Positions 5,621-63,288 of a DNA stretch of 64,000 nt are shown in pieces. The DNA lies in contig CM082579.2 in the NCBI GenBank assembly GCA_040954595.2, positions 7,677,625 through 7,741,624 on the forward strand. The letters run 5' to 3'. Made by a program: the position numbers and the translations under genes. Position 1 is the stretch's first letter. The number at the start of each line of letters is the position of its first letter. The notes under the pieces were generated by a model. The model did not search any database. It had not been told where the DNA came from and saw nothing but the letters and a program-made list of their open reading frames with translations. The stretch is from Balanoglossus misakiensis. Taxonomy: Eukaryota; Animalia; Hemichordata.

Positions 5621-5910
5621 CGCGAGGCTATAGGCATTGCATATATACGTGTAAATTGTCCTGGCAATGTTCCCTTTAAATGTAATAACAACAACAGCGT
5701 AATGTTTAGATGTTTATGATTAGAACTGTCATTTTCGATATCCGTTCCCAGACTCAGAGGGAACTTAACACAATTGATTGCCAAATGTACGCCCTGGGTC
5801 AAAAAATGTTCTCTTATTTTCTTGAAATCTGCTCATTTTTACTTATATGTTTGATTCTCCCCAATTGTAACCATTTATCTAAAATTTGCACTTTTAGATA
5901 AAAAAAGAGT

Positions 5911-8900
5911 ATGGGTGCCGCTCTGACTTCCCTCCTGCCAGATTACGTCATCTACATCCAGACAGGTGACGTCAAAGGCGGAGGTACCGACGCCGCCGTG
6001 CACCTGCGGCTCTTCAACGACCAAGGGAGGCGGTCACGTGAGATCCACCTGACCGACCCCTTCGGGTGGAACTTCGAGCGGAACCAAACGGACAAGTTCT
6101 ACATCAGAGACCTCGGCAACTTCGGAGAGATCGTCAAGATCGAGATCTGGAGGGACGTGTGGTTCGGAGACGACTGGTACGTGGACAGCGTCATTTTGGA
6201 GGACTTTCGCCGGAAGGACCGCTTCCCGTTCCCGGTTCATCGCTGGGTGACCGACGATCACGTCTTCATTCACAAATACGACTGCATCTTGCCGATGGAT
6301 GAGCCGAACCCGACACAGCGAAGCGACGAGTTGGCTTTCAATAAACGCCAATACAATTTCGGCCCATCCGAACAGGGAATACCGATAATGGTGCGCATTT
6401 TTACACTCAGAGTCAGAGCGGAGAATAATCGTGAAATCTTCTCGATCATTTATGTCACTCTGCAAAACTGTGATTATCTCCATGTAATTTTTACTCGATA
6501 TAAATGCTAGTTTTACCCATTCCACATTACTTGTATTTATACATCGGGGAAATATTTTCCTTATCCACTTTTGTCGTTCTGTATAACATTTTGCTTTTCT
6601 TTTTGTTACAGGTTGAACGTCTGCCAAAGCACGAAGAATTTTCGTTTTCCCACCAAGTAAGCAGATAACGTCCACTTAGTCCCGACTTTAGTCTAGCCTT
6701 TAACTCCCACATCCCCATTTCCCTGTTTATGGTGCACAACTCTTGGAATCATTTTGTAATCTTCAATGATTTTTTTTATCAAACGAGAAAAGTGCATTCA
6801 CAAATTTGCTACGGTCCCCACCAAATGTAAAACGGACACCTGCAAAAATCTAGATACAGATACCGTGGACATTTACACTTACTATAATTCTTTACCCCAC
6901 TCGACAGATGGATCTCAACAAACAGCTTATGCAAAGTATTCTGACGACAAAAGTGAACTTCATGATGTCGCCTCCCTGGACAACTCTGGACAGCATCACC
7001 AACGTCTACAGTAAATACTTTGTCTTACCAGAGGTAAATAATCCCCACAGGAATCATAAAATCTTTTGTGGACCTATTTCTTTCCATCTTCGCCTGCTAG
7101 AGCCTCCTTGCTCTCGGAAAGTTAGCTCGTTAGTGGGAGACTGGTCGCGCTAACGACCCGTGCGAGCGGATGATGTTAAAGGTTTCTATATCAATTTGCA
7201 GTGCTATCCGACGTGGCGGGAAGATTGGCATTTTGGATCCCAGAGGTTACAAGGTTGCAACCCGTGCGCCATAAGACTTTGCACGGAAGTACCAACCAAG
7301 TAAGGCAAATTCAAATCTTAGAACTATACTGTTAAAATCACAGTACATGTACTTGTTTTAGTCAGGGAGATATTCAATAACTAGTATTGGAGAGGGTCAA
7401 GTCGGTAGATTGTGTTATCAATAAGTGCGACATCCCTAGTTAATATCCTGCTTCCATGCAGTAATTACATAAGGTTATCTTCACTTGACATTTCCATCCT
7501 TAATTCTGATTGAATTAATTATATTGATCTATCGCCATAACTTCTGATAAACTCATAATGTGTATAAATGTTTTCGTCTCTGGAAATGCTGATATTCAGC
7601 GGGCGGCGTCTTCTATTTTTGTGGTTATCATTTTGTTGAAATCCTTATTCACAGCCTGGCAGTCACAAACGCCATGGTGAAACCAGTCATGGAAGGCATG
7701 ACCCTTCAAGAGTGTATGGCACAGAAACGTCTCTTCGTCATCGACTACAGCATGCTGAAGGATATCCCAAAGACCTTCGCCAAACTGGTAAGGGGAAACA
7801 AATTTATACAAACGGTTCTCAGAGATACAGAGCCAGAGGGTTTTATCTCGTATTATCACCGAGCTTTCAATATTCTTAAATTGGAACTATAGGGCCTATA
7901 TGTTTTATATCCACACTCAGGTTGTTTGTGCGCCAATTGCGCTATTCTTCATGAATAAGGACAAAGTGTTGATGCCAGTGGCGATTCAGTTGTTTCAAGA
8001 TCCTGGACCAGACAACCCGGTAGGTTCCCGAAAATAGAAGTTTGCATTTAATTGGTATCATGGTGTCACTACCAACAAAATGAACGTTTCCCCTGAAGTT
8101 AAGATTACGCAGTGTAATAGCGTTTGATAAATGATTTATGTGGCGTTTTTATTTGCAGGTTTTTCTTCCGACCGACCCCGAGTACACCTGGTTGCTCGCC
8201 AAGATGTTCTTCAACAATGCCGACGCTTCTGTGCACGAGTCGGCCGTTCACCTGGCGTTCTCACATTTGCTGGTGGAGTCCTTTTCTATGGCCGTCAATC
8301 GAAACCTGTCGCCATCACACCCAATCTACAGGTTGCTGGCGCCTCACCTGAAGTATGTCATGGCGATAAACCAGTAAGTATAAGAGGTTTTGGTTTAAAC
8401 GGTGCAGACCGTATTTCCTATACCCCTGTGTGAATTCACATTAATAATTGCATTCTGGGTAAAATGTCGATAACTCACTGCACTGTAGCAAAAATCGGCC
8501 ATCTTGAAATTGTATCGACAATATATGTATAAGATTTTCATCACTCACCTACGTACCAAATCCCTATTTAAAGTATTAAGAATTGGGCGGGAAGGGAACG
8601 TTGGCAATTTCATCGGGAAAAATCACTATTGTATAGAGGGTGCGTATAGCACTGTACGTCTCCGTGTGTGTTCTAACTGAGTGTTTTTGGTGTTTTTGCT
8701 CAAAAGTTCAGCCGTAGAGACGTTGATTTCACCAAATGGTTGGGTGGATAAAGCAATGAGCGTCGGTCGAGTTGGTATGCTGGAGATCATTCGCCGAGAA
8801 TGGAAGAACTGGAGGTTCGATGTCGACGGTGACCTACCGAGCAGTCTGAAGGCCCGTGGTGTCGACGACCCGGGAGTAATCCCAGAGTTCCCCTTCAGAG

Positions 8901-9013
8901 ACGATGCAATACTTTTGTACAACGCTGTGAAGAACTACGTTGCCTCCATTGTAAAGGGGCATTATGGTATGTTTGTAAACTAATTGGTTATCATGATTCA
9001 CGAAAGAGGACAG

Positions 9014-9052
<39 letters not shown>

Positions 9053-10532
9053 TACACACATACACAACCGAATACATATTCATGATAGCACCGAAAGAAA
9101 AATTGTTTTGTTACAATCATAGAGTGGCGACAGTAGATTCGAAAAGAGTGGACAAGCCCTGTTCCAAAATTTAAGAAAGCCCCAACAGTTCGATACGCCT
9201 AACGCAGCTCGAATATGCATGATTCATGTAAAGTGTTCATTTACAGTACATTATCCAAGTGATCTCACGAAACCACTTTTTGAATCACAGAAACATGTGA
9301 GAAGGTGGTCGAAGATAACGAATTGCAAAACATGGCACGAGAGATATCTGCACCACCCCCAGAGGGACTCGGAGTGAAGGTTGGAGTTTATATTTACTTA
9401 TTTATTATTGCTTATTTATATGGTTTAAAACTATACCTAGGCCACCTAACACATTTTGGTTTACATGTTCTAGGGGGTCCCGGGCAACGGCAGTTTCAGG
9501 TCAAAGGACGATCTGATTGTAGTTTTGACGTGGATCATATTCAATTGCACCGTTGGACATTCAGCAACAAACTACGCCCAATACAACGAGTATGCCTTCC
9601 CGCCGAACTATCCTTCATATTTGCGCGGCAAACCACCAACAAGTAAGGCAAGTATGCAAGAACGTTTTTCATCACACCGACCGTTTGGTGGTGGCCTGTT
9701 TATACCTTCATCTATTCGGTTTGGTGTCTAAAGTCGTAGAATCGAGTCCGAGTTCCTCTGCCCATTACAATTTTCCTGCCCCCGGGTAATTTGCATATTC
9801 AAAAATGGCTATGTATATGGCAGTATAACAATGGTGGGTACTTGAATTCTTCCGTGAGAAATGCATGTGCTTGTTTTGCATTTTGTTAGTCTTCTTCATC
9901 TTACACTCATGTGATAAGTCTTATGTGACACTCTCATCACTTTTCCTTGTCATTCTTGACACTCAACAGGCGCCGCTGACAGAGGATGACGTCATGCAAC
10001 GTATTCCGGTGAAAGAGATGATGTTGAACATCATGGCGATGACGTATTGTTTGAGTGCTCCTAGCAACGACACGCTGAAACGAAGCGCTGTCATCACGCA
10101 GTATGACCCAATCGGCGCCAATGCGTACCAGGAGTAAGTTACATGCATGTGTTCATGGATTAAAGCCCCATAAGCTGCCACTTTGGGCATATTTTAATGA
10201 TAAAATACCAGTACTTCAATCTTCTCCTTCAATGGCTGACAGATGACGCCATTTTGAATTTGTGAACATTTGCACTGGCAAATGTGTCTTCAAGTTAACA
10301 AAATGCCCCAAACCAAATGTGTTGGATATGTGAAAACGCAATTGCTGGCTACAACGCTGTACAAATCTCTTTTGACTTTGACAGTTTTATTGATATTATT
10401 TATACGTTGATCACTAGCTTCCAGGAAGAGTTGGAGGGAGTCGGGCGAATCATCGACGAACGCAATGAGAGGAGGAAGAGAAAATACCCGTACCTACACC
10501 CAGACAGGGTTGCTAATTCCATCAATATCTGA
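5911..10532 (+). CDS. Lipoxygenase A (PLAT + catalytic domain; 12 exons, ~665 aa)
   Basis: Exons 5911-6390, 6612-6656, 6908-7033, 7202-7299, 7655-7787, 7921-8019, 8159-8373, 8707-8966, 9291-9379, 9474-9647, 9970-10133, 10418-10532 total 1998 nt in frame. It has the PLAT motif [16 protein letters not shown], iron ligands [11 protein letters not shown] and GHSATN, and C-terminal NSINI. Confidence 0.93.
9009..9066. repeat. (GACA)n / (CA)n microsatellite in a lipoxygenase A intron
   Basis: gacagacagacggacagacagacag...catacacacatacaca, seen directly. Confidence 0.85.
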
Positions 10533-12425: not shown

Positions 12426-12620
12426 TGTGTTCATTTTGAACAGCCGATGAAAATTGAAGACTCGACATATTTCGGTAGGATCGGTTGACAGGCGCAGAAT
12501 ATATCTTGGTGCAAAATGTTGTTGTTCCCGGTGTACCTCGTGTATGTAACACCTGTTTTTTCTCATTGCAGGTTATATTGTGTGCACAAGATTTGCCTCC
12601 TTATAAGAGAAGCGTGAGAG

Positions 12621-15600
12621 ATGGGTGCCGCCTTGACCTCCCTGTTGCCCGACTACGTCATTCGTGTCCACACCGGAGACATTAAGGGCGGTGGCACGGA
12701 CGCCTCGGTGCATCTGAAGCTGTACAACGAGGAAGGGCAGCAGTCGCGCGAGATCGTGCTGAAAGATCCGCTGGGGCTGAACTTCGAGAGCAACCAGACG
12801 GACACGTTCTACATCCGCAACCTGAGCGACTTCGGGGCGATCGCCAAGATAGAGATCTGGCGAGATGTCTGGATGGGCGACGACTGGTATGTGGACAGCG
12901 TCATCGTCGACGACTGGCACAAGCGCGAGTCGTACCCCTTCCCGATCCACCGCTGGGTCACCAACGACCACTTCGTCGTCACGAAGTACGACTGCGTCTT
13001 GCCGTGGAACGAACCGCATCCCGCGCAGCGACAGAAAGAGCTGGAGTACAACAGAACCGAATACGTGCTCGGTCCCCACGAACATGGACTGCCCATCAGG
13101 GTAAGTCAAACAATAATTGTCCGTGCATGGGTGCAGCGCATTGCTAATAGTGATAACTGTATTACATACAGCGCGAGAACTCGTGTAATTTCTTTCCTTC
13201 CCATCTAAAAATTGCCACAGGATTTTCCAACTGATAAAAAATAACACTGATGTAAGAATATACAGGGTAAAAAACTATAGTAGGCCTAAACAAATGCTGC
13301 TTGAGTATCGATGTCGTTTGTTTGAAGAGGAGACAACCAGTGCGATAAGTCATTCTCAGCATATACATATACCTCCCTTTTCCCGTCAAAGTAACTTTTA
13401 TTGACGTTTGTCATGTACTATTGCAGAAAATTATTTTTTTACCATTCTCAAAATACCACGCGCATACCGACAGGGTGTAATTATATATCCGTGTTCTTTC
13501 CCATTCGCAATAAACATATGTTGACTTTTTTTACAGGTTGCAGAGTTACCAAAGCACGAAGACTTTTCATATGGCCATAAGGTAAACCAACAGATGTGTT
13601 GAAATTGACCATCATGGCAGCTTGCGTGTGCTGTCAGTATAGACACGTCTGTGCGCCACGTTTCCAAAGCTTGAACTTGTCAGTGTGTTTGTTGGTTTGT
13701 GAACTCAATCAGTGTTATCTCTAGTTTGGCATCCAAAAACATTTTGGTTGCTCAGACTATTTAAAAAAAGACAGTCACAATAAAAGAGCAATGGCTCGTG
13801 CCTATTGTTTTTATAGGTTTCTAAAAATCGCTTATGTATTCGTAAAGTGTTGTTGTTATTAACACGTGATCGATATTGCTAAAAGTGTGAATTTCGCCAT
13901 CTAATTATCCTCAATTACGTAACCCCCCCCCCCAACAGATGGATGTCAAAACGTACTTGTTGAAGACTTTTGTCCGCACCAAATTCACCAAGATGTTTAC
14001 AAGTGACTGGACTGGACTAGACAGCATCCAGAATGTCTATGGTGGCGTCTTTCCTAGGCCTCAGGTAATGAAAGCTTTTAATAGCATCACAATTACCCCC
14101 GTGCAACCATGTATTGATAATTCACATAAAACAAATCTATTGAAACGGGGGTGTTGCAACACCCACAGGTATTCCAGGAAGGCTGATATTTTTGGAAAAC
14201 CCATCTGCGCACCCTTTGCTGCCATTTTCATATTGTGCTAACTTCTGGTGCTGCAGATATCAACTGTAATATTACAGCGTTTTCCACATGGGACGAGATA
14301 CATATTGACTTCTTATTAAAGGGACATTAGCTGTTACTTTTTACTTTATTTTCAGTATTTTGTTCCGAGTTCAAATGCAATTCCTCGCTCTTCTCCAAAC
14401 AGCAGGCTAATATACCCAGTACTCCGCTTGTCAACATACGAGACCAAATATAATTTGGTGAAGTATATGACACACTTGAATTTACCAAATTGACTGTGAC
14501 CAAATGGGAGCACGGTGCCCTCGACGCTATTTTTTCCTACACTGTGTAGTGATGGAAACCGTTGTTTGTTTCTCTGAGCGCTTATATGTTTAACCTTGCA
14601 GGCCTTTTTAACCTGGAAGGAAGACTGGCACTTTGCGTCACAGCGTCTAGAAGGCTGTAACCCGTACGCCATCCGGCTCTGCAGAGAAGTACCAGCCAAG
14701 TAAGTCAATATACAGTGCACCGTAATTCACTAAAGGGGAACTAGATCCCACAAATCGAAGGAATGAACTGATAATAATAAGGTCTGAACAGAATTAAGGA
14801 TATGAAAAATGATATCTGAAGAATTGGTCATATTTTGGAAATAAGTTGCTGGTTTCTCTGAACAAGCTGCCACCAAGTTTACCGTTATGTGAAATTTTGC
14901 AGTTTGCCTGTAACAAACGAGATGGTGGCGCCCTTTCTGGAAGACATGACTCTGGAAGAATGCATCGACGCAAGGCGGTTATTCATCGTAGACTATCACG
15001 TTTTGGTGGACGTACCAAGGGTTAAGGATGAACTAGTAAGTCGAGATATCAGTCTTTGCAAGCCCTTCTGAGTCTGACATATAGCGAACGTTTGATTAGA
15101 TGTAACTTTTTGGTGTAGGTTGTAACCGTACATTTTATTGGTGAGTTTATTGTCTTTCATTCCCATAGGTTGTTTGTGCTCCCATTGCGCTATTCTTCAT
15201 GAACAAAGACAAGGAGTTGATGCCAGTGGCGATTCAGCTGTTTCAAGACCCTGGGCCAGAAAACCCGGTGAGTAATTGTCTTTCTAGGAATGATATCGTT
15301 CAAGATTACTACCCTTTTTATATCGTGCAAAAATATTCCTACACGCGCGTTGGCAGTTCTTTCCGGTGTCGCGTGGACACACCTGCAACTCAAGCTCATC
15401 AACATAATCTATGCACATACTGATACGTGCGTTTTCTCAAATACGTGTACATAAAGACAGGGTCACACAATGTAGTACACATGAATCATGGTGACACCCT
15501 AACGTCACGTCTCTTGACCATTGCAGGTGTTTCTTCCTAACGACCCCTACTACACATGGATGATGGCCAAGCTGTTCTTCAACCACGCAGACGCATCCTA

Positions 15601-17608
15601 CCACCAAGCTGCCACCCATCTGGGATTCACTCACATGATAGTCGAGACAATGTCGTTATCCGTCAACCGCAATCTGTCGCCCTCACACCCTCTATACCGA
15701 CTCGTTGGGCCCCATTTGAAATACGTCATGGCTATTAACAAGTAAGTATTAGCGCTTTTGAATCGTGTAGCCCATCAGTATTGGTGGTGTCTAAATGTAC
15801 ATGGTATCTCGTAAAGTTAAGAAATGGGATGTTGTGCTCTACGTCAAATGGTGAAATCACAGACAAATAGAAAATTATTGTCTGTGGTGAAATCAATAGA
15901 CCATTTTCCGAACTCCACGAGACCCAGCGAGATCTCGCGTGGCTAGCCAATTTATATTGGAAGGATATTCTGATGTGATACAGGACAAACGATGGATGCC
16001 CCGTCGTGTTAAACTACACAAAAATTCGCTTTTTGTTAAATTTTGCCACCTATTTGAGTTTCATTCAAACTGTGACTTGTATCTTGGCTAGAATTCCGTT
16101 GCTACGTTAATTGAGTCTCACAAGATCTCGCTTTGTAACAACATCTACGTGTTTGTTCTTTCTCTCCTCCCACCCCCTCCCCGAAAAAAAGCTCCGCAGT
16201 AAACATCTTGATTGCGCCGAACGGCTGGGTAGACAGCGTGATGAGCATCGGCAGAGTTGGTATGCTGGAGATCATCAAACGAGGCTGGAAAGCGTGGAGA
16301 CTGGACGTGGACGGAAGCTTGCCGAACGACATGAAGGAACGCGGGGTCGATGACCCGGATGTGATACCGGAGTACCCGTTCAGGGACGACGCCTTGCTCA
16401 TCTACAAAGCTATCCAGAACTACGTCAGTGAAGTCGTTCGAAGTCACTATGGTAGGTGTACAGCCTCGAACCCGCCATAAGCCCTGTCTGTTCCTCAGTG
16501 CAGTCTCCTGGCAATGTGACTTCGGATTATTAATGATCAACTATCATATTTTTTCAAACTACAGAAACTGCTGCGGATTTAGCTGAAGACAATGAATTGC
16601 AAAATATGGCCAGAGATCTGACAACACTGCCACCAGAGGGACTTGGAGTCAAGGTACGCCAACTAGATTTGCAAAAGAAAAAATCACTCACTGTTTATAG
16701 TTTTCTTACTTATTATTCGGTCTATACCTCCTGCCTGCCTTTTTGTCGTGACGTGTATCTTTGCACCGTTCGTTCGTTTGCAGGGTGTTCCCGGAAATGG
16801 CAGTTTCACCACCTACGAAGACGTCATCCAGGTGTTCACGTCCATTATATTCATGAGCACAATCGGACACACTGCGGCTAACTACAACCAGTACGCGGAG
16901 TACGCCTACCCGCCAAATTATCCCATGCTTTTGCGAGGTACACCACCCAGAAACAAGGCAAGTACTTCGACATAGGATAAGGAAATTTGGAGTATCTTAT
17001 CAGGGACGGCGGCCATTTTGAATTTCAAATTTGAGGCAATTTCGCTCTCTCAATCAAAATTTTTATTCACAAATTTAAGAGAGAATAGTATAAAGTTGCC
17101 ATGAGCAAAATATGAGAAAAAGTTTATGACTGATTTTCGGTGCGCATTCTGACTTGATAGGAGCCGCTCACGGAGGGTGACGTCATGAAACAAGTCGTGG
17201 ACAAACCCCTGATGTTGAAGGTAGTGGCCATGGTTCACGTGCTGAGCCGTCAGAGTGACGACATATTGGGGAACAGCGTTGTGACATATCAGTACGACGA
17301 TATCGGCGTCAATGCCTACAAAAAGTAAGTCAAATGTCACTCCAGTACAAGTCTTATGATAATTGTTTACATGACCTAAAAAGAAAATGCACATTTTCGA
17401 GACTAAAGGACTGCAAAAAGGCAAGTGAACAGCGTTGGTGGGCAATATGCTATTAAAGGTAACATTTTCCTTGGCCCCTTCATCAATTTCCAGGTTCACC
17501 CACGAATTGCAAGAAATTGGCCGCATCATTGACGAGCGTAATAAGACCAGGAAGAGAAAATACACTTATCTCCATCCGGCGTGGGTTGCAAACTCAATCA
17601 ACGTGTGA
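12621..17608 (+). CDS. Lipoxygenase B, tandem paralog of A (12 exons, ~665 aa)
   Basis: Exons 12621-13100, 13537-13581, 13939-14064, 14602-14699, 14903-15035, 15169-15267, 15527-15741, 16192-16451, 16565-16653, 16784-16957, 17161-17324, 17494-17608 all match paralog A in size. Motifs: WMMAK, HQAATHLGFTH, GHTAAN and C-terminal NSINV. Confidence 0.93.
15895..15945 (+). repeat. Short dispersed repeat, related to 4064-4114 joined to 5627-5630
   Basis: aatagaccattttccgaactccacgagacccagcgagatctcgcgtggcta resembles aatagaccatgcattttccgaactccgcgaaaccctcagatatctcgcgag[foldback]gcta. Confidence 0.6.
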
Positions 17609-18293: not shown

Positions 18294-20928
<2,635 letters not shown>

Positions 20929-21395: not shown

Positions 21396-22230
21396 GTTTG
21401 TAAAATTTAATGTTAAATGGGAACTTCGGTTGATGTCATTTGGTATGATATTTGTGTTTGAACCTTTTTTAGACTCAAGCGTTGGAGATGGGGAACTACC
21501 TTATGTGATAGTACAGCATGCCTTCTGGATCCTAAAATATTTATGACGTGGTGCCCATCCACCGTACCCTGTCTCATAATTGTCTCCCTAGGAGATTTTC
21601 TGGAAGGACAAGATTAAGATTATCTGTATTGTCTGTTACTAAGCCAGCAAACTTATGAGCGTGTTAGAGATATTCGTAAGCATTTCTGACGAACAGACGA
21701 TGACCATTATTGTTCGAAGCGCGACCGGGGCGGTTTCGGTTTACCTCGCCATGTCTTGTCATTTCAGTGACGTAGCTGGAAACTTCTCACTTCTCCACAC
21801 GTATAGACTGCGTTATATCTTCGTCGTATTTGTTAAATTTTGGCTAGTTTTCTGTTCACGTGTTATAATGCATTACTGTGTCTGTCTCATGAATATGCAT
21901 CACCGGATGGCCACTCTAGAGGCATATGGTCAACCACAATTTTTTAGCACCTCCTCCAATTAAACACAGCAATATTTTCCGAAAATACGTGCATTGAACA
22001 TGTTGTAGTCGTCGCTGACTCAATGTACTGTAACAAAGTACTTCGCTCTTTAATCATGGACCCTTAAAGGGGGAGGTTCGTCTCAACTGCGCATGTGACG
22101 TTTGGAGAAATGGTACTACATTGTATTACGTAAATGCGAAGTATGAATTATTAGTGCCACTTTTTTCCTTTGTAGAAATGGTACTGTTTTCGAGAAGAAA
22201 CTAGGAATCCTTACAGTGGACAAAATCAAT

Positions 22231-25200
22231 ATGGCGTCGTTCAAATCGCTGGGAATTGTTCTGTTATCTCTGCTTGTCATTCCGTATTGTGATGGCTTTG
22301 ACAAGGCTGAGTGGGTCCGCACCGCTTCAGTCAATACACCTGGTAAGTAAGTAAGTAAGTGAGTGAGTGAGTGAGTGAGTGAGTGAGTGAGTGAGTGAGT
22401 GAGTGAGTGAGTGAGTGAGTGAGTGAGTGAGTGAGTGAGTAGGTAGGTACTCTTCCACCCTAATATCATTTCCCCGTCGACTCCACAGAAAACAGCCATT
22501 CGTACTTAGACTGGCCGCGACTGCATTTCTCTGGCACTTTCTGGTTTGACTCCCCGACTGGCAACAACCTGTGCGAGAACTACGACATCAACACCTTCGA
22601 TGAGCGAATCAGGGCGGATCCACACATTCTTGGCTGGAACCCTGAGGGTTCGGCCTGTTTTCAGTTATTGGACTGTCAAGTGAGATCTGCCTGCTACACA
22701 GATGGTCTGTGTACGACCAATCGAAAAACAGATGCTGTCGTTGAAAAGCCTATTTATAGTAAGTCAGATGAACATTTTATTTTCAGTGTTAGCATTCAAA
22801 GAGCGTTCTTCTCTTTCGAGCTATAATATTATCTCAGAGATTTCCAAACAAGCTTTATTGGTTTCATTATCCGAGCTGTACATGTAAATGTGCACTGGCT
22901 AGTACCACTTACTTGTGTGCAAATTGCAGTTTATGTCATATACTAGTATACGACGTACCAAGTCATGTAGGTGTGTATTTCTAAACAGAAGCATCCGGGT
23001 AACCGTATCAATTTCTTTTACTCCATTAATAGGTAACGTCAACCGTCCCGATGCAAAGATGGCGGACATAGATCCAATATACATATCCGTGCCGACGATA
23101 TTCGGGTTGTCGTTGCACATACCTGGCGCCTTTTCGGGCAAACTTGTGGAGGCGCCGATGTCAAATTCCTACAACAAACTGTCGAAACGTGAGCGCAGTG
23201 GTCATATTGGCGCCGATTTCTATTCCTTGCTCGTTGATGTGGAATGGGAGATCGGTCAAGAGGGAAAGCACTCGAGAATTGTGAAAGAGCTCAAGGAACA
23301 AAGCCTGCGGAGCAAGACACCTAATGTTTTGTCGGTTAAATTCAATTTGGACATGTTCGAAGCCTTTTCCAAAAGCGGTACATTTGGAACAGGTCGTGTC
23401 GTTGGCAGCATCGGCGTCGCTGGACCTGCAGAGCCGCTGCACGACATACGTCACCGGAAGTTGCGCCCTCCAACATCCAGTAGGAAGTACGGGATTGCCA
23501 ATTTCCGCGTTTTCCAAAATCGCGGGAAGATTTTGATAGACCTCGGGAACAGTCTACCCTATAACGGAGAGGGACCCGATTCTGACGTCATCAAGGTGCT
23601 ACAGGTTGCCTATCCATCGGAGCAGGAGTCCGAGATCTTGACCTGTGACACACAAGTAGAAGTCGTTGGAAATATTGACTATGCAAGTAATGGATGGTAC
23701 GAGATCACGGCGGGTGTCGTCACTGTGCCATCGACGTCAGTGTTGACAAGGAGGCAGCGCAGTGAACTAGCTGATAGGCCCCTGCTCATAAGACAACTGA
23801 ACAACGACACCAATGCCTGCGAAGGGGTCGTGCTGGCAGAGCGAGTTGACGGCATGGCGGTCGGCATCATGGGAGAAAGGGTATTCCGACAAGACCCCGG
23901 TGATTCGTGGACGCTTCACGCATTCTCGACCAAATTTGGACGCCGAGCAGACGACCTCTTACTGGAGATCAAACCGCACGCATTGGTCGAAAACAAACGC
24001 ATGTTTTCTCGCTGTGGCGCGGGAAACCACGTGTCGTTCAACGAGCCACCCTCCGCTGTCGGCTTCGAAGAGCCGAAGAAAACGGATGAAAACGGGCAGG
24101 CAGATTTTGAATTCACTGGGTATGATCCCAAAAATCCCAGAAAAATCAAAGACGGTCAACTATACCTTTATGACATCCTGGTGAATAAATCCTTCACTTC
24201 TGATCTTCCTATAGTTATCTACATGTACGACGATTTTGTGGTATCAGAAGGCGGGCCGACCTGGCACCAGGACATTTATCCAATATTCAAAATGTATTCG
24301 AACATGTTCCCAAGCATGAACAATATCATCAACATGGCGTCGTACGATGACGTGTGTCGCAAGAAGTGGATGTTGGCAACGACCATGACGTTGCCCGCGG
24401 CGGACCCGCAGTACATGCCCGTCACCAGAGACCTGTCCAAGCGAAAGCAGCGGGCCATTCTGCAGTGGCTGGACGACCCCAAGCCGGGCGAAGTCCCGCG
24501 GCCCAGTCTGGAAGACCTGAAAAGGGACCTGCAGACTGCGCTGGAAATGGAGCTGTCCACGATCCCGCCGTACCTGACCGCCTGGCTGTCCATCAAGAGG
24601 GGGCACAACGTGGACATCTCCAACATCCTGCGCAGCATTGCCACCGAAGAGATGCTGCACATGACGCTGGTGGCAAACATCTTGAAGAGCATATGCGGCA
24701 GGCCAGTTCTGAACGAGAGGCGGCGGGTGCCGACGTACCCTACCAAGCTCCCCGGGGGTGTCCACCCACACCTCACCGTCTCCCTCGGGCGGCTCACCAA
24801 GGGACTCATAGAGGACGTGTTCTTGAAAATCGAGGAGCCGGACGACACCCTGCCGATACGGTTGCGCCAGAGGGTGCTGGCCGTCTCTCCAGAAATCGAG
24901 TCGGATTTGGAATCCGAAGTTCCCCTGCGACACCACAATCGCACAATTGGCCAGTTCTACTACAACAGGATATGGAAGTCACTGAGCTACCACGCCAGCA
25001 TCAACTCGAGTTTGTTTATGTGTGGAGACAAGGACACGCAGGTTACTGAGGGCGACTGGTACAGTCAGGCCTTGGAGAAGCCATTTGCAATCACCAACAT
25101 CGAAGAAGCAAGGCGAGCCATCGAGATCATTACAGAACAGGGGGAGGGAAGTTCCCCAACGCAGCCGTACGATTCCGATGGTAACCTCTCGCATTATTTC

Positions 25201-25737
25201 AAATTCATGGAGATTGTGATGGGCTACCGACTCGTGGTGGATTCGAACTTGCTGCGTTCGACGCATGAGGAGGAAACGCCCGACGAAGGCAGCTGCGACA
25301 TCGCTTATTCGGAGAGGTTCGCGCGTAGCTTCTGTGGAGACGGCGGGAAACCGTGCGACTTCATGCGTGTGCACCGCAGATGCAACGTACCGTTCCACTT
25401 CACCGGGGAGCGGGTGTCCTTTCACGATGACGGCATCTGGCCGATAGTGGACAACCCGAGCAGCGAGCGATACCCGAAGGACTCCAAAGTGGAGCTTCTA
25501 TCGCGCCTCTTCAACAGAGAATACTCGAACTTGCTGCGCTGCATCCACGACACCTTCAACGACAAACCGCGAGGTATGCAACGGTGCATGTCGATCATGG
25601 CCAGGATGGAGTCACTCGGTCGCCAGTTGGTCAGTACGCCGATCGCGTTTGGCGGGGATCCGAGCGTGGGCCCGAATGGGGCACCGACTTTTGAGTTTGA
25701 TGAGATAGCCTTGCACCCAGAAGAGAAAAAGACGTGA
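22231..25737 (+). CDS. Secreted VioB/RebD/StaD-like protein with a C-terminal ferritin-like domain (3 exons, ~1028 aa)
   Basis: Exons 22231-22342 (signal peptide MASFKSLGIVLLSLLVIPYCDG), 22489-22758 (SYLDWPRLHFSG..PTGNN) and 23033-25737 are joined by phase-1 GT-AG introns; 3087 nt in frame. Motifs AKMADIDP, YMPVTRDLS, ELSTIPPYL..A, EEMLHM..VANIL, EQGEG, SHY..F and APTFE follow the order I recall for the VioB family. Confidence 0.82.
22343..22448. repeat. (GTAA)n(GTGA)n tetranucleotide repeat filling intron 1 of the VioB-like gene
   Basis: The repeat starts at the splice donor (gtaagtaagtaagtaagtgagtgag...) and runs for about 100 bp. Confidence 0.92.
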
Positions 25738-28898: not shown

Positions 28899-31800
28899 TC
28901 ATGACGTTACTACTGTCGCGCGGTGCCGCTGTAACTGTTTAGAAAACTCTCTCAACTTCTCCTTCAGGTCAACACGTCCCACTTTCTCCAGTTTGTCTTC
29001 AAGAATTCTTGTATCGTACACTAATAATAAAGCATACTCTTGCATCACCGAGAAGAGTGTAAAGGGATGGGTTATTGCTTCTTGACGTCCCTTTGGTATA
29101 TCCACTTTTAACAGAAATTTTATTTGTTCAAATTCATCTGGTAATGGCAGAAACAGAATGGAGAGAAAGATAGATGATATATAAATGACATACGTTTAAA
29201 GTCTCATTAGTGCCTTATCGCTAACCTCTACAAGGGTTACAAAATATCAATCCGCATATATTTTAATACGATCCGTCTTCAGAAACAATTAATTAAACTA
29301 TCTCCCAGAAGCGCCTGACTTCATACGAGAAAAAAAATGACTTTGATTTTCGAGTATTCTAAGAAAGTGTCTGCCTGCCTGCCCGCATTCCAAAAATATC
29401 ATTTTTAAATAGCATAGTATAGCATCATCATCTATCATATTAACTCACGATTGTAAAAACACAGTGTCGCACATTGCATGCCTACCTTGCGAAAGTTCCT
29501 GTGAAATTTCATGTAGTATATCCTGCAGCATTTGTTTCCTTGTGTCTTCAGCAGTCTTCATCTTGGGCGTATTACAGGGGTTAGTCAGTGAAAAGATAAC
29601 GAAAAATAGTTCACTGTGTAATAAACATTCGTTAGTTCTAAATGTGTACGTAACGAAGTAACGTTTACGTACTAGTATCTTGCTAAATTAAAAATATAAC
29701 TTAGAGTTACCTGCTCTATCGGTGGTGAGATCGGGGCATTTTCTGCAGGAACAGTTACTCCCAGCTGAAAGTTATAATATTGTAATTGCATTAACATTGA
29801 GGAAATATTGCTTTTGGAGTTACAAGGGCTCATTGGTGTCAATGATCGCTCACGCCGCTTTCTTTATTTCCTAGGCATGTGTAATCTCTTAGAAACGCCA
29901 TGTATATTTTTCTCACCCAGTCTCTCTTCATCTGATTCATGTTCTTTCTTGCTTCACCCTATTGGTGTAAAATGACACGTGGTTAACACAGTCATGTCAT
30001 GATCACAAACGTAGTGGCGAAGGCTGAATATCTCATTCACGGACCCTAATGTCTTCGGAGACACCAAGAAGGCCAGTAGGGTACACGTGGATTGAAAAAT
30101 AATAACTAAAATTCCGTTTTATGTATTAATAAACAATAATACTTACTGGTTCCACCTGTGGAGGCACAGAGACAGCGACATCAGTTCCACCGGGTTCACT
30201 TGTATGAACCTGCAAAATCACCATAATAGGGGAAAAGTTGAGAAGGCCAATAGGGTACACGTGGATTGAAAAATAATAACTAAAATTCCGTTTTATGTAT
30301 TAATAAACAATAATACTTACTGGTTCCACCTGTGGAGGCACAGAGACAGCGACATCAGTTCCACCGGGTTCACTTGTATGAACCTGCAAAATCACCATAA
30401 TAGGGGAAAAGTTGAGAAGGCCAATAGGGTACACGTGGATTGAAAAATAATAACTAAAATTCCGTTTTATGTATTAATAAACAATAATACTTACTGGTTC
30501 CACCTGTGGAGGCACAGAGACAGCGACATCAGTTCCACCGGGTCCACTTGTATGAACCTGCAAAATCACCATAATAGGGGAAAAGTTGACAACAGAAATG
30601 GTATCATGAATTCCTTTGGGGGTTTATAAAACAATAGCTCTAGACGCCAGTGCTTCACTTAACTTCATGAGCACCTGCTGGCTTGGCAATGTTGTGAAGT
30701 TTACGGAATACAGAATACTGACTTGTTTGAAAGGTATTAGTTAGATGGAATGGCGAAAAGTCACTAAAGGTCACTTTCACATGCCCCTGCAAGATTTGGA
30801 GGAAGGGGTTGTACTAAGTCATGTTCGTTTACACGCAATTATAGTTCGAAAAGTCCTTTTTGTCGACGCTCTAATGGATTGCACTGAATAGTTACCGTCT
30901 CTTCATCTGAGGGTGCTTCGTGTATCATTTCAATTTCTTCTTCCTGATTTAAAAAAAAAAATTTGAACACATCATCATCGACATTGTTCCCGAAGAATGT
31001 TTGTCGTGGTGTACATGTATAGTGTTATACAAGATAACAAAAAACACATTATTTGAGAAGATGATGATGCACAGAACAAATCTAATCCATTTTGCGCTTA
31101 CCTGGACCTTTCGGAGCTTTTTGTCTCTCACATTTGTTTTCTTTCTGTTCTTGGATCGTCGCTTCGATCCACAGAATATGAATATAGCTATTAATACGAC
31201 AATGACTATTCCACCGAGAATGCATACAATAATGATGACCGCCCAGTTATTTCCATCACTCCCCGCATCCGCTACATGTGAAGGAAAGCAACAAAATAGG
31301 TGAACATCTATGTTAGAAAATCGCAAATTTCACCGGTTTATCCTAAATAACAATCAGGATTTTTTATTCAATTATTTTACTATGAAAATGATGTAAAGCG
31401 AACACTGACCAATGGATTAGGCCTATGTCATTGTAGGTCATTGTAAATTGATGTGAGATTGGCTTTTTTTGCCTACCATGGGCAAGATTGCTCTGCAAAA
31501 TGTAGGTCACATTAGCTCTGTCCTAAAAGTTAATGTCGATTGTTAAATTGGCTATACACGTACCTCCGTATACAATCTTCACGTAAAGAACAGAACTATT
31601 GTCATTGGTATACGTAGTTTGCAGACGATGGTTTCCTTGAAGTTTGTCCGACATCACAAACATCAATGACTGGTAACTAGCATTAGCTGTGAGAAACACT
31701 ATGTCTTCAAAATCGTCCTGGATGTCACAATTGAAAGCAAGCCCATCTTCCAACCAAGCGTCGGCTATAGGCCAATTCGCTAACGTCTTATTATATAAGG

Positions 31801-35519: not shown

Positions 35520-37682
35520 ATGAAATTTGGAACCTTTTCCGCCATTTGCATGGTTTGCGGCGAAATCATCGTTCACTCACATTCAGTGATACGTAAAGTC
35601 TCTGCCACTGAAAATTTTACAACCCCCGAAAAAACAACAACTTCGTCTAACATGTCTGAAGTAGGTCGTTCCAGAAATAAATATTTGTGTACGTTTGACC
35701 ATTTTGGTACTCGTTACACATGCACGTACTACTTACACGGTAGAAAATAATTCGAATCCCGACTCGGGAGTTTCGTATGTCAAACCACCATATCGTTACA
35801 ACCTCTATCATAAAGAGAATCTTAAAGTATGCATAACTGGGAACAATATATAGGTAGGCGTTTTGAATGTAGACTTTTACAAATAAATCAACTATAAAAT
35901 TTAACTAACTTCAAATCTGTATAGTGACGCTGAAAGAACGTAACCATGGTACTGTTAAGGACATAAGCCATTTTTGGAAGCAAAGTTTTTGGCTTAATAA
36001 AAATCTGTAGTATATCTATTGTTGGGTTAAATTGTGGTAGAGGGCGCTATGTGGGAGATCCTTGCTCTACCACCTCAAGACAAATGGACTTCGGTTAGCA
36101 GACGTTCTAAATTTAGACGTTTTGAGAAAACTTAAGAAATAAGTTTGGGTTGACTACCTAGATCAAGATTTAGACATGCTGTGACATTTATAGTTGAGAA
36201 TCCTTTCAGTTCCCAGCGAATTTGTGGCGGCGGAATCCATTCTTGTCAACGAGGGAAGCAGAGCGCAGCTGACTTGCGTCAAGCAGCCGCCGCTAGAGGG
36301 CAGACTGGTGACGGTGAGATGGGGGAAAGATGGCGGCATATTCATCGCTCAGAAGTTTGAATCAGGGGTGGAGCACTACGTCGAGGTTGGCAAATATTCC
36401 ATCGACGACAGCATGAGCCATCTGCTGATATACAATGTCGAGGCCTCAGACGAAGGGGACTACACATGCTCGGCTGAATTCGACAGCGGTCAAGCGGACG
36501 AGAGCGATACAATTACACACCATACCATTACGTTACAAGTTAACACGAGTGAGTACATTGCCAAGTCATGTGATTCACACTAGTAATACACTGCACTCTT
36601 ACCGTATGCAATAATTTATTAAACATGTTTTATTCACTGCCTTTAAACCTTTATTCTCAAAATATAAACGAAAAAAAATATATTTCTTAAATCCAACACT
36701 ACTCATCAATAATGCTTATTAAAGCTCCAGTAACTCTAGGCTAAAATTTGGGCATGGGAGAAAAATATCCCAAAATAGCTAGAGAATTTATCATGAAATT
36801 ATAACATAAATCTTGACCTCATCCAATCGTGTAATGACCTTTTATTTCATAAAGGTTCGGAATTCCCTCTCAAGGATTTAATGACGACATTGAAACTAAC
36901 GTAATCTATTCATTTATCGCATATACACCACAGGTAATCCAGTTTCTGGAAACGCAACAAACGGTATGCTATATATTTATATTATTGCAATTTACGTTTT
37001 ACGTCAGAGTGCGTATATAATGATCATGTGAAATACTCGTGAACAGTGATATCTTGGAAAATCCAGAGTTACTGCATCAAGATGGATCAAACTTGATGTT
37101 ACCAACGTATGAATGTACTAAATGCCACTTGACGGTTTCTTTTCAGAAGATGGTAACTTTTTGTCATTCTTATGATTTGTTCGTTATTCTTCATGAAAAA
37201 AAATCATTTTAGACATGCAACAACTGTCCAGTTCCACCTCAAGACTCTACATTTATATTTTGATCGGCGTTTGCGGAGCCCTTCTTCTGATTGTCATTGT
37301 TCTCTTTTCTTGGTTCTTAATCATTCGCAGAAGGAAGGTATGTAGCTGTGCAAACTTTATCCTATTGTTGATTTATTGATATTTGGATAAAAAATGGCGA
37401 CTGAATTTACATTTGTCAAATCGACGTCTCCAATAAACCAATAGATCAATAAAACCGACCAACCAACCAACCAACCAACCAGTCAGTCTATCTGTCCCAC
37501 TTTTCACATTTGTCCCTTTCTCTTTCTCTGCATCTATTACTTCCTCGACGATGAAGATGCGGGCACGTCAGACATCTCAGAATACCCGCACTACAGGTAT
37601 ATACAAACCTGTGACGCAAAATCGGCGGCAAAACAAACGGAAGAACAGGACAGCAGGCGACCGGAAAGGTTACACAGTTTAA
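35520..37682 (+). CDS. Single V-type immunoglobulin-domain membrane protein
   Basis: Ig exon ~36210-36548 (LTC..VRWGK..LLIYNVEASDEGDYTC), stalk exon 36934-36963, TM exon 37213-37337 (YIYILIGVCGALLLIVIVLFSWFLII-RRRK) and a probable tail exon ~37557-37682 (..GIYKPV..GYTV*). The leader exon from ATG 35520 is tentative. Confidence 0.7.
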
Positions 37683-41750: not shown

Positions 41751-41977
41751 TAGACTAGCCCACTAGTCGCTTGGCGATTTTTAAATCTCATTACTTTTTG
41801 TGTTTTCGGTGTTTTTTTTTGTCTTAATAAATAATTGCAATACTTTTTGCGTGCATGCTTGCCTTGAGCGTGTTTTTGGTAATGAGGTGAGTTTCGAATT
41901 TGGGACTGAGCTTGTGGTTTCGGTGGGCCTACGCGTTCCCTACACATAATGAAGCCCATAGACTTGGAGCAAGTCTA
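41751..41977. mobile_element. ~230-bp non-autonomous element with TAGACT...AGTCTA ends and a 9-bp TSD (copy 1)
   Basis: Flanked by cgttcacat at 41742-41750 and 41978-41986. A near-identical inverted copy lies at 62934-63164. Confidence 0.85.
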
Positions 41978-42171: not shown

Positions 42172-45100
42172 ATGGGTAACGGGCAGGGAATGGTCCGAGA
42201 CCAACAGCCGACGAAGGTAGACGATTTCTTCCGCGCCAGTTCGGCGCCGCGTACCCGGAGCCTCGCCAGTGCCATCATACACGCGATCAGAGACTCCCAA
42301 GACGACGATGATGATGGCGACGTCGTGTTCGCCGACGGCCGAACAACACTGAGCCAGCTGGACCACGGCTGGGATCCCAGCGACTCGTCACCCGGCGTGC
42401 GGATCCTGGACGACGGCATCACCGCGGTGCGGGCGCAGGCGGCGGGCACCACCGACGCCTCGCGGGGCAAGAAGGCCTACCAGTCCGGTTGTCACGTCTT
42501 CCGCTTCCACTGGCCCAGAGAAGAGCGGGGCTCGCACGCCACCGTCGGCTGCGGGACCTCTCAGGTGCCGCTCACCTGCGCAGGGTACTCGGCCCTGGTG
42601 GGAAGCACCCCAGACTCGTGGGGCCTGGACATCTCCGAAAATAAACTGCACCATGCGGGTAAAGAATGCGGGGTGTACCCTACAGGAAATAACCACTTAC
42701 CGGACACGTTTTACATGGTTTTAAATCTCGACGCCGGTACGCTTAGGTAAGTTACAGTCTCAAGTTAAAAACCCACTAAGTGGCGATCTCTTCAGGAATT
42801 TCTGATGTAGTACCGGTTAATGCATGGTTACTGTGTTAATGAGTTTCTATCGGATAGAATGATAGTGGCCATATCACTTACAAAATGCACTTACTTTGGA
42901 GAACCATTTACGGCCGTAGATCGCAAGTAAACTGGAACTAACTATGTTCAATTGGTTTGAAATGGAGTTGAAATGTAACTTAAAGACACCACGATCCTCT
43001 TTCAATCGTGCGTTCAGTTTCAGATCAACAAACAGCGGAGGGTTGGGGATAGCCTTCAACAATTTGCCGAAAGGCGATAAAGCGCTCTGTGTGATGGCCA
43101 GTGCAACAGCTGGAGACAGTCACGTCCAGATGAAGTACAGAGGGAGTGAAGGTAAGAGCGTGTTTTAGAATGATAATATGTGCTGTTCCGATTACATGGT
43201 TTTCAAAAATAGGGTAGGTAGGCAGGGAATTTTTTTTATTTTGCATTTTTTAATTTCTCTGGCCGCCGTAGTGTAAAAGAATGACGTCATATATACGTAT
43301 TGGTTTATCTTTTTCCAGCATATTTATATAAAACAAATATTCACCAATAAAGTCCAATACGTATATCTAACATGGGAAAAGGGCCTCGGAATTAATTCAT
43401 TGACGCACTAAGAAAAAGACGTCGAGTAGTCATATAAAACGTGTGATTCCGCCACACAACGGAGATAAATGAAGTCTTGGTTTCCTTAATATTGGCAGGG
43501 ACGCATGTTGGGTTGCTCCAGAGACAAGATCCAAGATCGTTTCCAGAACCAGCGGATCCGACGTTTTATACGTTCCACTCGAGGTGTGGCGAAAATGCTG
43601 AGGTGTTGTTCGGCGGTAAAATGGCCAGGCGTGTTGAGTGAGTTTCAATACTGTGCAACCTTATATACATGTACACTCTTCTCGCAAACCCACGAAGCCC
43701 TAGTCTCGGTTACATACACATACATGTACGTGGACAACTGTGAAACAAGGTGACATTAATCACATTCCCTTTAATTTTTCCCCCCTCGGCAGTGCCGACG
43801 ACAACCTCGACAAGGCAGTTGTGGTCACGTCGCAGCCCCTGGAAGACGGGGAGCTGTTCCAAGTTCGACTGGAGTCCAAGGCTTCCAAGGGTCACGGCTC
43901 CCTCGAAATTGGCGTCACCACCATTCCGGCCAACCAGCTATCCTTCCCGTCCTCCATGACAGACGTGAAGATCGGGGTCACTTTCATGTGGAGCGGCCAG
44001 GTTATTTTCAGGAACGGCAAAGAATTTCTGGATCTTGGTCATGATTACAGTAATATTACGGTTGGTTGCTTACTTGTGACATTATATCGGTTATTTTACT
44101 TAATTTTTCCAACGCCATAACTGTGGCGTGGCCCTGATTTTCCATGGTATATTTTTTGTTAGCTTGCACGGCCGATTGTTGCAACTCAACTCATACCCTG
44201 TATATGGGCATAACGTGTGACTATACGAACGACATAATTTTTGGTACTGACCGAAATGGTGGAAGGATTTTCTGTGTAGAGGGTGTGAGTTGCCTGTTAC
44301 AACAAACAATTTGTACTTTGTCACGCGCTGAAAATGCATGTCAATGAGAATATTCTAACCACGCCTTGGTTTATGACAGAGACCCCAATATATATGACAG
44401 ACACTGGGGTTTTTATGAACTGCCGTCTGTACCGCCTGGTAAATGCAGAAATTGACTCTCCCGAGAACTTTCTACATTTTGTCGTCTGTAAACTATCGAT
44501 CCCAATGAACGGGGACATTTGCAATTCGTTGTCCAGCGTGTATCTATTCTCGGCTTGTCAAATCTTGTCCGTTACTATGGCAATTACAAGTGTGAAAACT
44601 AGATGACATTCCACGGATGTCTTTTCTATGGCGCGCTTCCCCGATGAAGTTCCCCGGGAAAACAAAGATTTCTTTTATGCACGGACCCACGATGCGCAGA
44701 TACAGAGGAATTATACCTGACACGGATAAACCTTTGTTTCACCTTAGTGGTCGAGCGAACACTTGAGATAACAGTGCTGCTGTGTGCCGAAGTAAACAGA
44801 TTACAGAAGACTGCGCTCATGATATTCAAAAACAACATGCAAGTCTGTTAACAATATGACGTGGTGATCTAGGTCGCATTGGTCATGTGGCTAGCACATT
44901 TGAATTTCGTGCGACGATGTAACATCGCTCGATTGATGAACCCGAGCATGTGTGCACGTTTGAGGGCAGAGTCACCATGATGTGGATTTGTACATTGATG
45001 CAGGCGCGGGGGGGGGGGGGGTGTGATATTTTGGATTCAAAACCAGGTGGACATTCAGCAACGCCAGAACACGTAATTTATAATGTGCCAAAACCGACCT

Positions 45101-52000: not shown

Positions 52001-52570
<570 letters not shown>

Positions 52571-53189: not shown

Positions 53190-58040
<4,851 letters not shown>

Positions 58041-58449
58041 TTTAAGCTGATCCGAGGTTGCGAAATCAAAACAACATGCGAGTCGCCATTTTCTTTACCT
58101 TTGACCTTGTTTTGAACCTCGCCCGAGCTTCATAGACATATTTTATTTTCATTTCCAAGATTATTTGTCTACACACCGGTAACCTGCATTCAATGTACTT
58201 ACATTAAACTTACAGTTTCTCATGATTTCATTCATTATATATATTGAAGAGAATTTGCAATCAAATTCATTCTGGATAAATCTCGTATTAATCAATGTGA
58301 ACGAGGGCTTGTTCAGACATGCGCAATATGAACTTTTCGCTTTCCGAGTATTCAGCACTTTGCGTATTGTGTTGTGGTGGATGTTGTCATTCCAGCGTTA
58401 CAGGTGACAATATTACAGCGTTACAGGTTAGTGCCGATAAATCGCAAAC

Positions 58450-63164: not shown

Positions 63165-63288
63165 GGCCATAGTGTTCAAAGCACATTTAATAGAGCGACC
63201 GTTGGTCAAATATAACTTATTTTGACGTCTTTGACTATAGTCCCATCTCGCGACGCAGTCTAGTAAATGTCCATGTAGAGTGACGTCT

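What the first reader, a model, noticed from the sequence alone, without database searches (positions are those of the whole stretch)
22231..25737. Animal gene encoding a secreted, full-length VioB/RebD/StaD-like indole-imine coupling enzyme
Seen: the ORF track misses two upstream exons. Splicing them gives ~1028 aa, with a signal peptide followed almost at once by SYLDWPRLHFSG..PTGNN, and the protein ends in a ferritin-like domain (ELSTIPPYL, EEMLH, EQGEG, SHY, APTFE). Known: bacterial VioB (violacein) and RebD/StaD (indolocarbazoles) are ~1000-aa heme enzymes that couple two indole-3-pyruvate imines made by an L-Trp oxidase; by my recall they start S(I/V)xDxPR(I/L)HFxG and share YMPxTRxLS. 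Inference: a gene of bacterial ancestry was domesticated with a leader exon and two spliceosomal introns. It may act outside the cell with a secreted L-amino-acid oxidase to make bis-indole pigments or defence compounds, or to consume peroxide. No oxidase partner is in this window.
Basis: partly seen in the sequence, partly recalled or inferred. Interest (0 to 1): 0.92.

Follow-up and report, generated by a model that had tools for sequence, protein, structure and literature searches.

The report
Ancient animal secreted VioB-like enzyme family
This is a real three-exon marine-animal gene for a likely secreted, full-length distant relative of the bacterial pigment enzyme VioB, shared by sponges, corals, acorn worms, lancelets and sea squirts, and predicted to use haem and metal ions for peroxide-driven chemistry on a substrate that has not been identified.

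Summary
The gene model holds. Three GT-AG exons give 1028 aa, aligning without gaps across both junctions to a Ptychodera flava RefSeq protein at 72% identity. Homology to VioB/StaD is full-length (hhalign probability 100, 856 columns, 17% identity), with the same predicted domain order and six conserved candidate metal ligands. It is not a VioB orthologue: exon 3 scores 11.8 bits on TIGR04492 against a cut-off of 1250. Its closest bacterial relatives are an uncharacterised ~900-aa family (26-36% identity in the best segment) with no VioA neighbour in 79 loci; 11 of 79 lie in ebo operons and 2 of 79 directly beside lodA/lodB amino-acid oxidases. Relatives with signal-like N-termini occur in sponges, cnidarians, amphioxus and tunicates, and form one clade (SH-aLRT 98-99). 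The gene is therefore ancient in animals, not a recent domestication, and nesting within bacteria is not shown. Best reading: an extracellular haem/dimetal peroxide-using oxidoreductase of unknown substrate. Indole-imine coupling is possible but unsupported. This scan earlier noted a bacterial half-VioB module on other DNA, but not this animal family.

The parts
22231..22342 (+). Exon 1: ATG, likely signal peptide (about residues 1-22) and a short linker
   Evidence: hydrophobic N-terminus, GT donor; same N-terminal layout in P. flava proteins
22343..22488 (+). Intron 1, phase 1, GT-AG, containing a (TGAG)n microsatellite
   Evidence: gap-free alignment across the junction
22489..22758 (+). 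Exon 2: start of the VioB-superfamily beta-rich N-terminal region (SYLxxPRxHFxG...T.NN motif)
   Evidence: family profile E 4.6e-30
22759..23032 (+). Intron 2, phase 1, GT-AG
23033..25737 (+). Exon 3: rest of the beta-rich region, Ig-like domain, small helical domain, ferritin-like domain, stop codon
23845..24234 (+). Predicted Ig-like beta-sandwich (about residues 399-528), also seen at the same place in the VioB model
24253..24480 (+). Small helical domain (about residues 535-610) with near-invariant W538, Y549, M556, M589-P590 and R593; candidate haem site; weak resemblance to a class I cytochrome c lacking CxxCH
   Evidence: conservation; weak profile match (lead only)
24490..25700 (+). 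Ferritin-like domain (PF12902 core 24529-25218) with candidate dimetal ligands E634, E667, H670, E728, E832, H848

Best explanation
This is an intact three-exon gene, likely from an acorn worm, for a likely secreted full-length member of an uncharacterised branch of the VioB superfamily, predicted to bind haem and two metal ions and likely to use hydrogen peroxide to oxidise or couple small aromatic or imine molecules outside the cell. Shown: the gene model, the full-length homology to VioB/StaD, the 3HL1-type ferritin-like fold of the model, conservation of six Glu/His residues and two Met residues across the whole superfamily, and an animal clade spanning sponges to tunicates. Inferred: secretion; a dimetal site in the ferritin-like bundle; a haem in the small helical domain held by M589 (with M556 or Y549); and function downstream of a peroxide- and imine-producing oxidase, as VioB works after VioA and as some bacterial relatives sit beside lodA/lodB. 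The substrate is not determined and need not be a tryptophan product. The gene was most likely present in the last common ancestor of sponges, cnidarians and deuterostomes, with an older bacterial origin plausible but not shown.
For: Full-length profile homology to VioB/StaD-like proteins (probability 100, E 4.5e-49, 856 columns). A confident model of the 72%-identical P. flava protein (pLDDT 88, pTM 0.81) has the same domain order as a VioB model. E634, E667, H670, E728, E832, H848, M556, M589, P590 and R593 are kept in 97-100% of about 130 family rows, 3 of 3 VioB and 7 of 7 StaD-like rows. VioB is described as a haem-iron protein with intrinsic peroxidase activity (bioRxiv 10.64898/2026.02.15.704820, passages). 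[quoted passage not shown] 11 of 79 loci lie in ebo operons, a cluster tied to export of an indole-phenol monomer before its oxidative dimerisation (PMC6282210, abstract). Animal members carry hydrophobic N-termini, and some carry extracellular modules: TSP1, LDLa, EGF/FN3.
Against: No activity, cofactor or expression data exist for any member of this branch. Most bacterial loci have none of the informative neighbours (ebo 11, lodA/B or lodB 3, multicopper oxidase 2 of 79), and 7 of the 11 ebo loci are Undibacterium or near-identical arrangements, so independent cases are few. The cytochrome-c-like reading of the helical domain is weak: hhalign probability is 1-15%, an unrelated window scores similarly over 11-14 columns, no PDB or Pfam cytochrome hit appears, and no family member keeps CxxCH. 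The jellyfish member P0150 has lost all six candidate metal ligands, so some members may be inactive. Three trees disagree on the root.
Confidence: 0.5

Rival explanations
1. It is a functional VioB/StaD equivalent that couples two indole-3-pyruvate imines (possibly brominated), made by an unlinked secreted L-amino-acid oxidase, into bis-indole or diarylpyrrole compounds.
For: Full-length homology and shared invariant residues. Acorn worms contain bromo- and chloroindoles of unresolved origin (PMC6315191, passages). A tree holding hemichordates with VioB/StaD was not rejected (AU p=0.20). Sponges and tunicates, which also carry the family, are known sources of bis-indole and diarylpyrrole alkaloids (recalled, not from a call).
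Against: TIGR04492 gives 11.8 bits against a cut-off of 1250. BLASTP to true VioB covers only about 200 aa at 27% identity (best E 5e-11 in a small database), against 26-36% identity (best segment) with matches mostly spanning the whole protein for the uncharacterised bacterial family. VioB/StaD-like rows form their own clade at 100 support on a long branch. No VioA-like gene was found in 79 bacterial loci or in the window.
Confidence: 0.15
2. It is purely protective: a secreted catalase-like or Dps/ferroxidase-like protein that removes peroxide or sequesters iron in mucus or matrix, with no small-molecule coupling.
Confidence: 0.22
3. It is a mainly non-enzymatic extracellular or immune protein, in which the beta-rich and Ig-like domains bind ligands and the catalytic residues are relics.
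For: An Ig-like domain; fusions to TSP1, LDLa and EGF/FN3 in animal members; one animal member has lost the candidate ligands.
Against: Candidate metal and haem ligands are 97-100% conserved across bacteria and animals, and all are present in this gene.
Confidence: 0.08
4. It works with the two neighbouring lipoxygenases as a fatty-acid hydroperoxide-converting enzyme, in the manner of the coral allene oxide synthase-lipoxygenase pair.
For: Two lipoxygenase genes lie within about 17 kb upstream on the same strand; their PLAT region is closest to coral 11R-LOX and AOS-LOX structures.
Against: The lipoxygenases start with a myristoylation-like MG motif and have no signal peptide (by eye), whereas this protein is likely secreted. 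A divergent sulfotransferase gene lies between them. No lipoxygenase was seen among the bacterial neighbours scanned. Synteny in other animals could not be tested.
Confidence: 0.05

Closest known systems
VioB / RebD / StaD (iminophenyl-pyruvate dimer synthase, NCBIfam TIGR04492)
   Same: About 1000 aa; homologous end to end; same predicted order of beta region, Ig-like, small helical and ferritin-like domains; shared N-terminal motif, MPxTRxLS motif and six candidate metal ligands.
   Different: 17% identity at profile level; far below the family cut-off; separate clade; lacks the VioB/StaD insert in the first ferritin hairpin; has a likely signal peptide and introns; no Trp oxidase next to it or to its nearest bacterial relatives.
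Uncharacterised bacterial ~900-aa 'ferritin-like protein' family (fused, or split into a hypothetical gene plus a PF12902 gene)
   Same: 26-36% identity in the best segment, with matches mostly spanning the whole protein (E down to 1e-144 among candidates); same conserved residues; sister or parent group in all trees.
   Different: Bacterial members start directly at MSYL with no signal peptide, often occur as two genes, and sit in ebo, lodAB or unrelated contexts.
Caulobacter ferritin-like protein CC_0557 (PDB 3HL1, Pfam PF12902)
   Different: A stand-alone ~300-aa protein without the 570-residue N-terminal part.
Database-annotated animal orthologues (P. flava XP_070548599.1 and XP_070550418.1; Clavelina entries auto-named 'Iminophenyl-pyruvate dimer synthase domain-containing protein')
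   Same: Same family; 72% identical in P. flava.
   Different: They carry only 'uncharacterized' or automatic domain labels; no study of them was found in the searches run.

Membership tests
VioB equivalog (TIGR04492) | Score above the curated cut-off of 1250 bits | tested here: not met
   Exon 3 product 11.8 bits; full-length P. flava proxy no match at E<=0.01; true VioB control 1908 bits
VioB/RebD/StaD (IPA-imine coupling enzymes) | Groups with VioB/StaD rather than with other superfamily branches | tested here: inconclusive
   Three trees separate VioB/StaD-like rows at 100 support, but a tree holding hemichordates with them was not rejected (AU p=0.20) because the long outgroup branch cannot be placed
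VioB/RebD/StaD (IPA-imine coupling enzymes) | Encoded with a flavin L-Trp oxidase (VioA/RebO/StaO) | tested here: not met
   No VioA-like hit in the window or in 79 loci of the nearest bacterial relatives; GxGxxG-motif neighbours scanned were not amine oxidases. An unlinked animal oxidase is not excluded.
VioB/RebD/StaD (IPA-imine coupling enzymes) | Haem binding and coupling of two IPA imines | not testable with these tools
   Needs purified protein
VioB superfamily (broad) | End-to-end homology, including the N-terminal 600 residues | tested here: met
   hhalign probability 100, 856 columns; the family HMM hits the VioB N-terminus at E about 1e-8 to 1e-9 in a small database
VioB superfamily (broad) | MPxTRxLS motif and conserved Glu/His set | tested here: met
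Ferritin-like PF12902 | Pfam gathering score and 3HL1-type fold | tested here: met
Ferritin-like PF12902 | Occupied dimetal centre | not testable with these tools
   Residues are conserved; geometry and metal were not measured
Class I cytochrome c / PSCyt1 (PF07635), for residues 535-610 | CxxCH haem-attachment motif | tested here: not met
   0 of 332 segments carry CxxCH
Class I cytochrome c / PSCyt1 (PF07635), for residues 535-610 | Homologous fold with a distal Met before the C-terminal helix | tested here: inconclusive
   Collinear global alignment scoring above 100 of 100 column shuffles, but probability 1-15% and one unrelated window scores alike; the domain was not folded alone
Horizontally acquired animal gene | Animal sequences nested within bacterial diversity | tested here: inconclusive
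   Nested in the LG+G4 quick tree, unresolved in FastTree and LG+C20; non-nested tree not rejected, p=0.80
Horizontally acquired animal gene | Recent, lineage-restricted transfer into hemichordates | tested here: not met
   Named orthologues from sponges to tunicates; animal clade SH-aLRT 98-99; separate transfer marginally rejected, p=0.042

The most novel reading that the evidence does not exclude
Animals have kept, since before sponges split, their own secreted VioB-type oxidative coupling enzyme, with a haem held in a cytochrome-c-like domain that lost CxxCH and wired to a dimetal centre; it lets sponges, corals, acorn worms and tunicates build bis-indole and diarylpyrrole alkaloids themselves, in a step usually credited to symbionts.
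Probability: 0.15. Interest if true: 0.9.

Novelty: new variant of a known kind. Interest (0 to 1): 0.62.

Why it matters
VioB, RebD and StaD are known as bacterial natural-product enzymes, and no solved structure of them appeared in the PDB searches here. This locus shows a conserved, multi-copy, likely secreted animal branch of the same superfamily in several marine phyla whose halogenated and indolic chemistry has an unresolved origin. It supplies testable candidates for host-encoded oxidative chemistry. Comparing three distant branches also points to a short list of residues (M556, M589, R593, Y549, E634, E667, H670, E728, E832, H848) for locating the cofactor sites of VioB itself. The interest is lower than first scored because the family is ancient and already auto-labelled in databases, and its function is untested.

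Tried and rejected
RNA support: no RNA holder was listed, which is not evidence either way. No whole genome is held for the window, so paralogues, unlinked oxidases and synteny could not be examined. No second copy of the family lies in the window. Recent hemichordate-specific transfer was rejected on distribution and marginally by the AU test. The bootstrap ('careful') tree did not finish in two runs, so only SH-type supports are quoted. Fold searches gave no clear match for residues 40-400; the lists were dominated by the ferritin and Ig domains and the part was not folded alone, so this does not show a new fold. The ESM Atlas gave only hypothetical-protein clusters for the N-half and nothing useful for the helical domain. 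PDB-sequence and Pfam searches with the helical domain gave no cytochrome hit. Literature searches that found no description of the animal family: (listings only, unless a paper is cited as read). The hemichordate genome paper PMC4729200 had no occurrence of 'ferritin' or 'VioB' in its main text, or of those terms, PF12902 or 'violacein' in two supplementary files. PMC5133447 on ebo had no 'ferritin' or 'violacein'. Subscription papers, including the primary VioB/RebD/StaD enzymology, were not searchable. No complex prediction was run, as the report makes no binding claim.

Full report
Observation. Exons 22231-22342, 22489-22758 and 23033-25737 have GT donors and AG acceptors, both introns are phase 1, and the frame gives 1028 aa with one stop. 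The only strong hydrophobic stretch is at residues 5-20. The spliced protein aligns to Ptychodera flava XP_070548599.1 at 738 of 1026 identities with 5 gaps, none at a junction. The eight best hits among 21 were hemichordate proteins, so the window is likely from an acorn worm. Neighbouring genes are ordinary animal genes: 200 of 220 ORFs of at least 75 aa were scanned, and the other 20 overlap the gene itself. No RNA run was listed and no genome is held.

Nearest bacterial relatives. A genome scan found 251 stretches encoding relatives, of which 79 loci were kept. They are 26-36% identical in the best segment, mostly match over the whole length, and come from many phyla, fused or split in two; among their ORFs, 51 were full-length, 19 N-half and 20 ferritin-half. 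None had a VioA- or VioC-like neighbour by tblastn or by a narrow five-sequence VioA profile. Ten GxGxxG-motif neighbours scanned by Pfam included no amine oxidase; 49 of the 79 loci had at least 15 kb of DNA. Eleven of 79 lie in ebo operons, seven of them near-identical Undibacterium-type arrangements. Two have lodA and lodB directly adjacent and a third has lodB-like. Two have a multicopper oxidase. One of the 79 loci (L050) is from a genome marked unpublished; it belongs to none of these three sets, and it was one of 87 rows in the alignment used for folding and profile comparison. LodA-type enzymes release H2O2, and a PF12902 gene beside fungal lodA/lodB has been noted (PMC4417212, passages). 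ebo is tied to export of the scytonemin monomer before its oxidative dimerisation (PMC6282210, abstract).

Distribution and origin. The profile search found 6553 representatives at E<=0.001 and listed 150. Of 30 clusters looked up, chosen mostly for animal-like features, 14 carried names and all 14 were animals: Ptychodera, Glandiceps, Saccoglossus, Dendronephthya, Sanderia, Branchiostoma, Styela, Clavelina, Oscarella and Corticium. No named protostome, echinoderm or vertebrate member turned up, but this was not a test of absence. Named animal members have hydrophobic N-termini, whereas bacterial ones start at MSYL. In 45-row trees, the 23 animal-associated rows (15 named, 8 counting the window protein's unnamed companions placed by tree only) form a clade at SH-aLRT 99 (LG+G4) and 98 (LG+C20); deuterostomes are at 98 and cnidarians at 94-96. 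The 140-row FastTree left the homoscleromorph sponge clade unjoined and gave 89 for the rest. The 45 rows were a hand-picked subset of the 140 plus three named sponge proteins; near-duplicates were dropped, and split bacterial pairs were concatenated for alignment. AU tests: non-nested animals not rejected (p=0.80); separate transfer into hemichordates marginally rejected (p=0.042); hemichordates with VioB/StaD not rejected (p=0.20). Bootstraps did not finish. The gene is thus old in animals. Bacterial ancestry is plausible from the wide bacterial range but is not shown.

Mechanism. E634, E667, H670, E728, E832 and H848 are kept in 97-98% of about 130 family rows and in all 10 VioB/StaD-like rows. 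By established ferritin-superfamily knowledge these suit a dimetal site; geometry was not measured. In the small helical domain M556, M589, P590 and R593 are invariant in all groups, and Y549 nearly so. I noticed by eye a likeness to planctomycete cytochrome c domains. Against 23 such domains the alignment is collinear end to end, puts M589 on the distal Met, and beats 100 of 100 column shuffles. But probability is 1-15%, an unrelated window scores alike over 11-14 columns, none of 332 segments has CxxCH, and PDB and Pfam searches gave no cytochrome. It is a lead for the haem site, not a result. VioB is described as a haem-iron protein with peroxidase activity (bioRxiv 10.64898/2026.02.15.704820, passages; supplements not seen), RebD as a catalase and CPA synthase (PMC10076799, passages), and the three as haem oxidases dimerising IPA imine (PMC10847564, passages). 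The primary papers were not read. I infer an extracellular haem/dimetal oxidoreductase acting downstream of a peroxide-producing oxidase, with substrate open (0.5). True IPA-imine coupling (0.15), pure detoxification (0.22), a non-enzymatic role (0.08) and partnership with the adjacent lipoxygenases (0.05) are the rivals. Acorn worms hold haloindoles and bromoquinones of unresolved origin (PMC6315191 and PMC4208949, passages), which makes the test worthwhile but is not evidence for this protein.

Novelty. UniRef already auto-labels Clavelina members as iminophenyl-pyruvate dimer synthase domain proteins. Ten literature searches (listings) and term searches of the hemichordate genome paper and two of its supplements found no description of the animal family; the library lacks most subscription papers. 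Earlier scan notes had nothing by sequence or place and one note on a bacterial stand-alone VioB front half (e1-9780476), consistent with the split forms seen here. Verdict: a real gene and a new variant of a known kind, an ancient, likely secreted animal branch of the VioB superfamily with untested chemistry. Interest 0.62.

Noticed in passing
window 5902-10529 and 12618-17605 (+): Two tandem multi-exon lipoxygenase genes (PLAT plus lipoxygenase domains), closest in the PDB to coral 11R-LOX and AOS-LOX; both start with a myristoylation-like MG motif.
   Followed up: partly
window about 18297-20928 (-): A sulfotransferase gene (PF00685) with an N-terminal transmembrane-like stretch, transcribed head-to-head about 1.3 kb from the gene; its motif looks WSCD-type (label recalled, not from a call).
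   Followed up: partly
window 2409-3062, 28902-29195, 30952-31329, 36194-36580, 43704-47202, 49747-50388, 52064-52567, 53781-56330, 58441-60231, 61457-63999: Ordinary animal neighbours: TMEM70-family, death effector domain, receptor-type transmembrane segment, Ig domain, Neuralized/SPRY/Arm, folate receptor, core histone, AAA ATPase, RPAP2 and two EamA-type transporter ORFs. They show that the locus is on an animal chromosome.
   Followed up: no
L007, L012, L016, L022, L024, L031, L034, L036, L066, L076, L077: The bacterial family gene, fused or split, is embedded in ebo operons in Betaproteobacteria, Bacteroidota and Cyanobacteria (11 of 79 loci). No mention of this link was found or in PMC5133447.
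   Followed up: partly
L004:296-11213, L023:29-4654, L015:6-3694: The family gene lies directly beside lodA/lodB-type quinoprotein amino-acid oxidase genes (L015: lodB-like only, at the contig end); L004 has two family copies around a VTT/DedA gene.
   Followed up: partly
L014:4979-7738, L030:5023-7767: A 915-920 aa multicopper-oxidase-like gene lies immediately upstream of the family gene in two Acidobacteria.
   Followed up: no
P0150; P0134; P0110 and P0124 clade; 31-row unnamed clade: The jellyfish member has lost all six candidate metal ligands. One unnamed member is fused to an OTU protease domain. An unnamed clade with atypical N-termini nests among bacteria and may be a separate eukaryotic acquisition. 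A large unnamed clade groups with animals.
   Followed up: no
window 4114-5621, 30067-30589, 41751-41977 and 62934-63164: An inverted repeat of about 370 bp at 97% identity just upstream of the first lipoxygenase, a 174-bp tandem repeat of three copies, and a dispersed inverted 230-bp repeat.
   Followed up: no
window 22161-22205: A pyrimidine tract plus AG at about 22176, followed by a short upstream ATG frame ending at 22205, suggests a further non-coding 5' exon (read).
   Followed up: no
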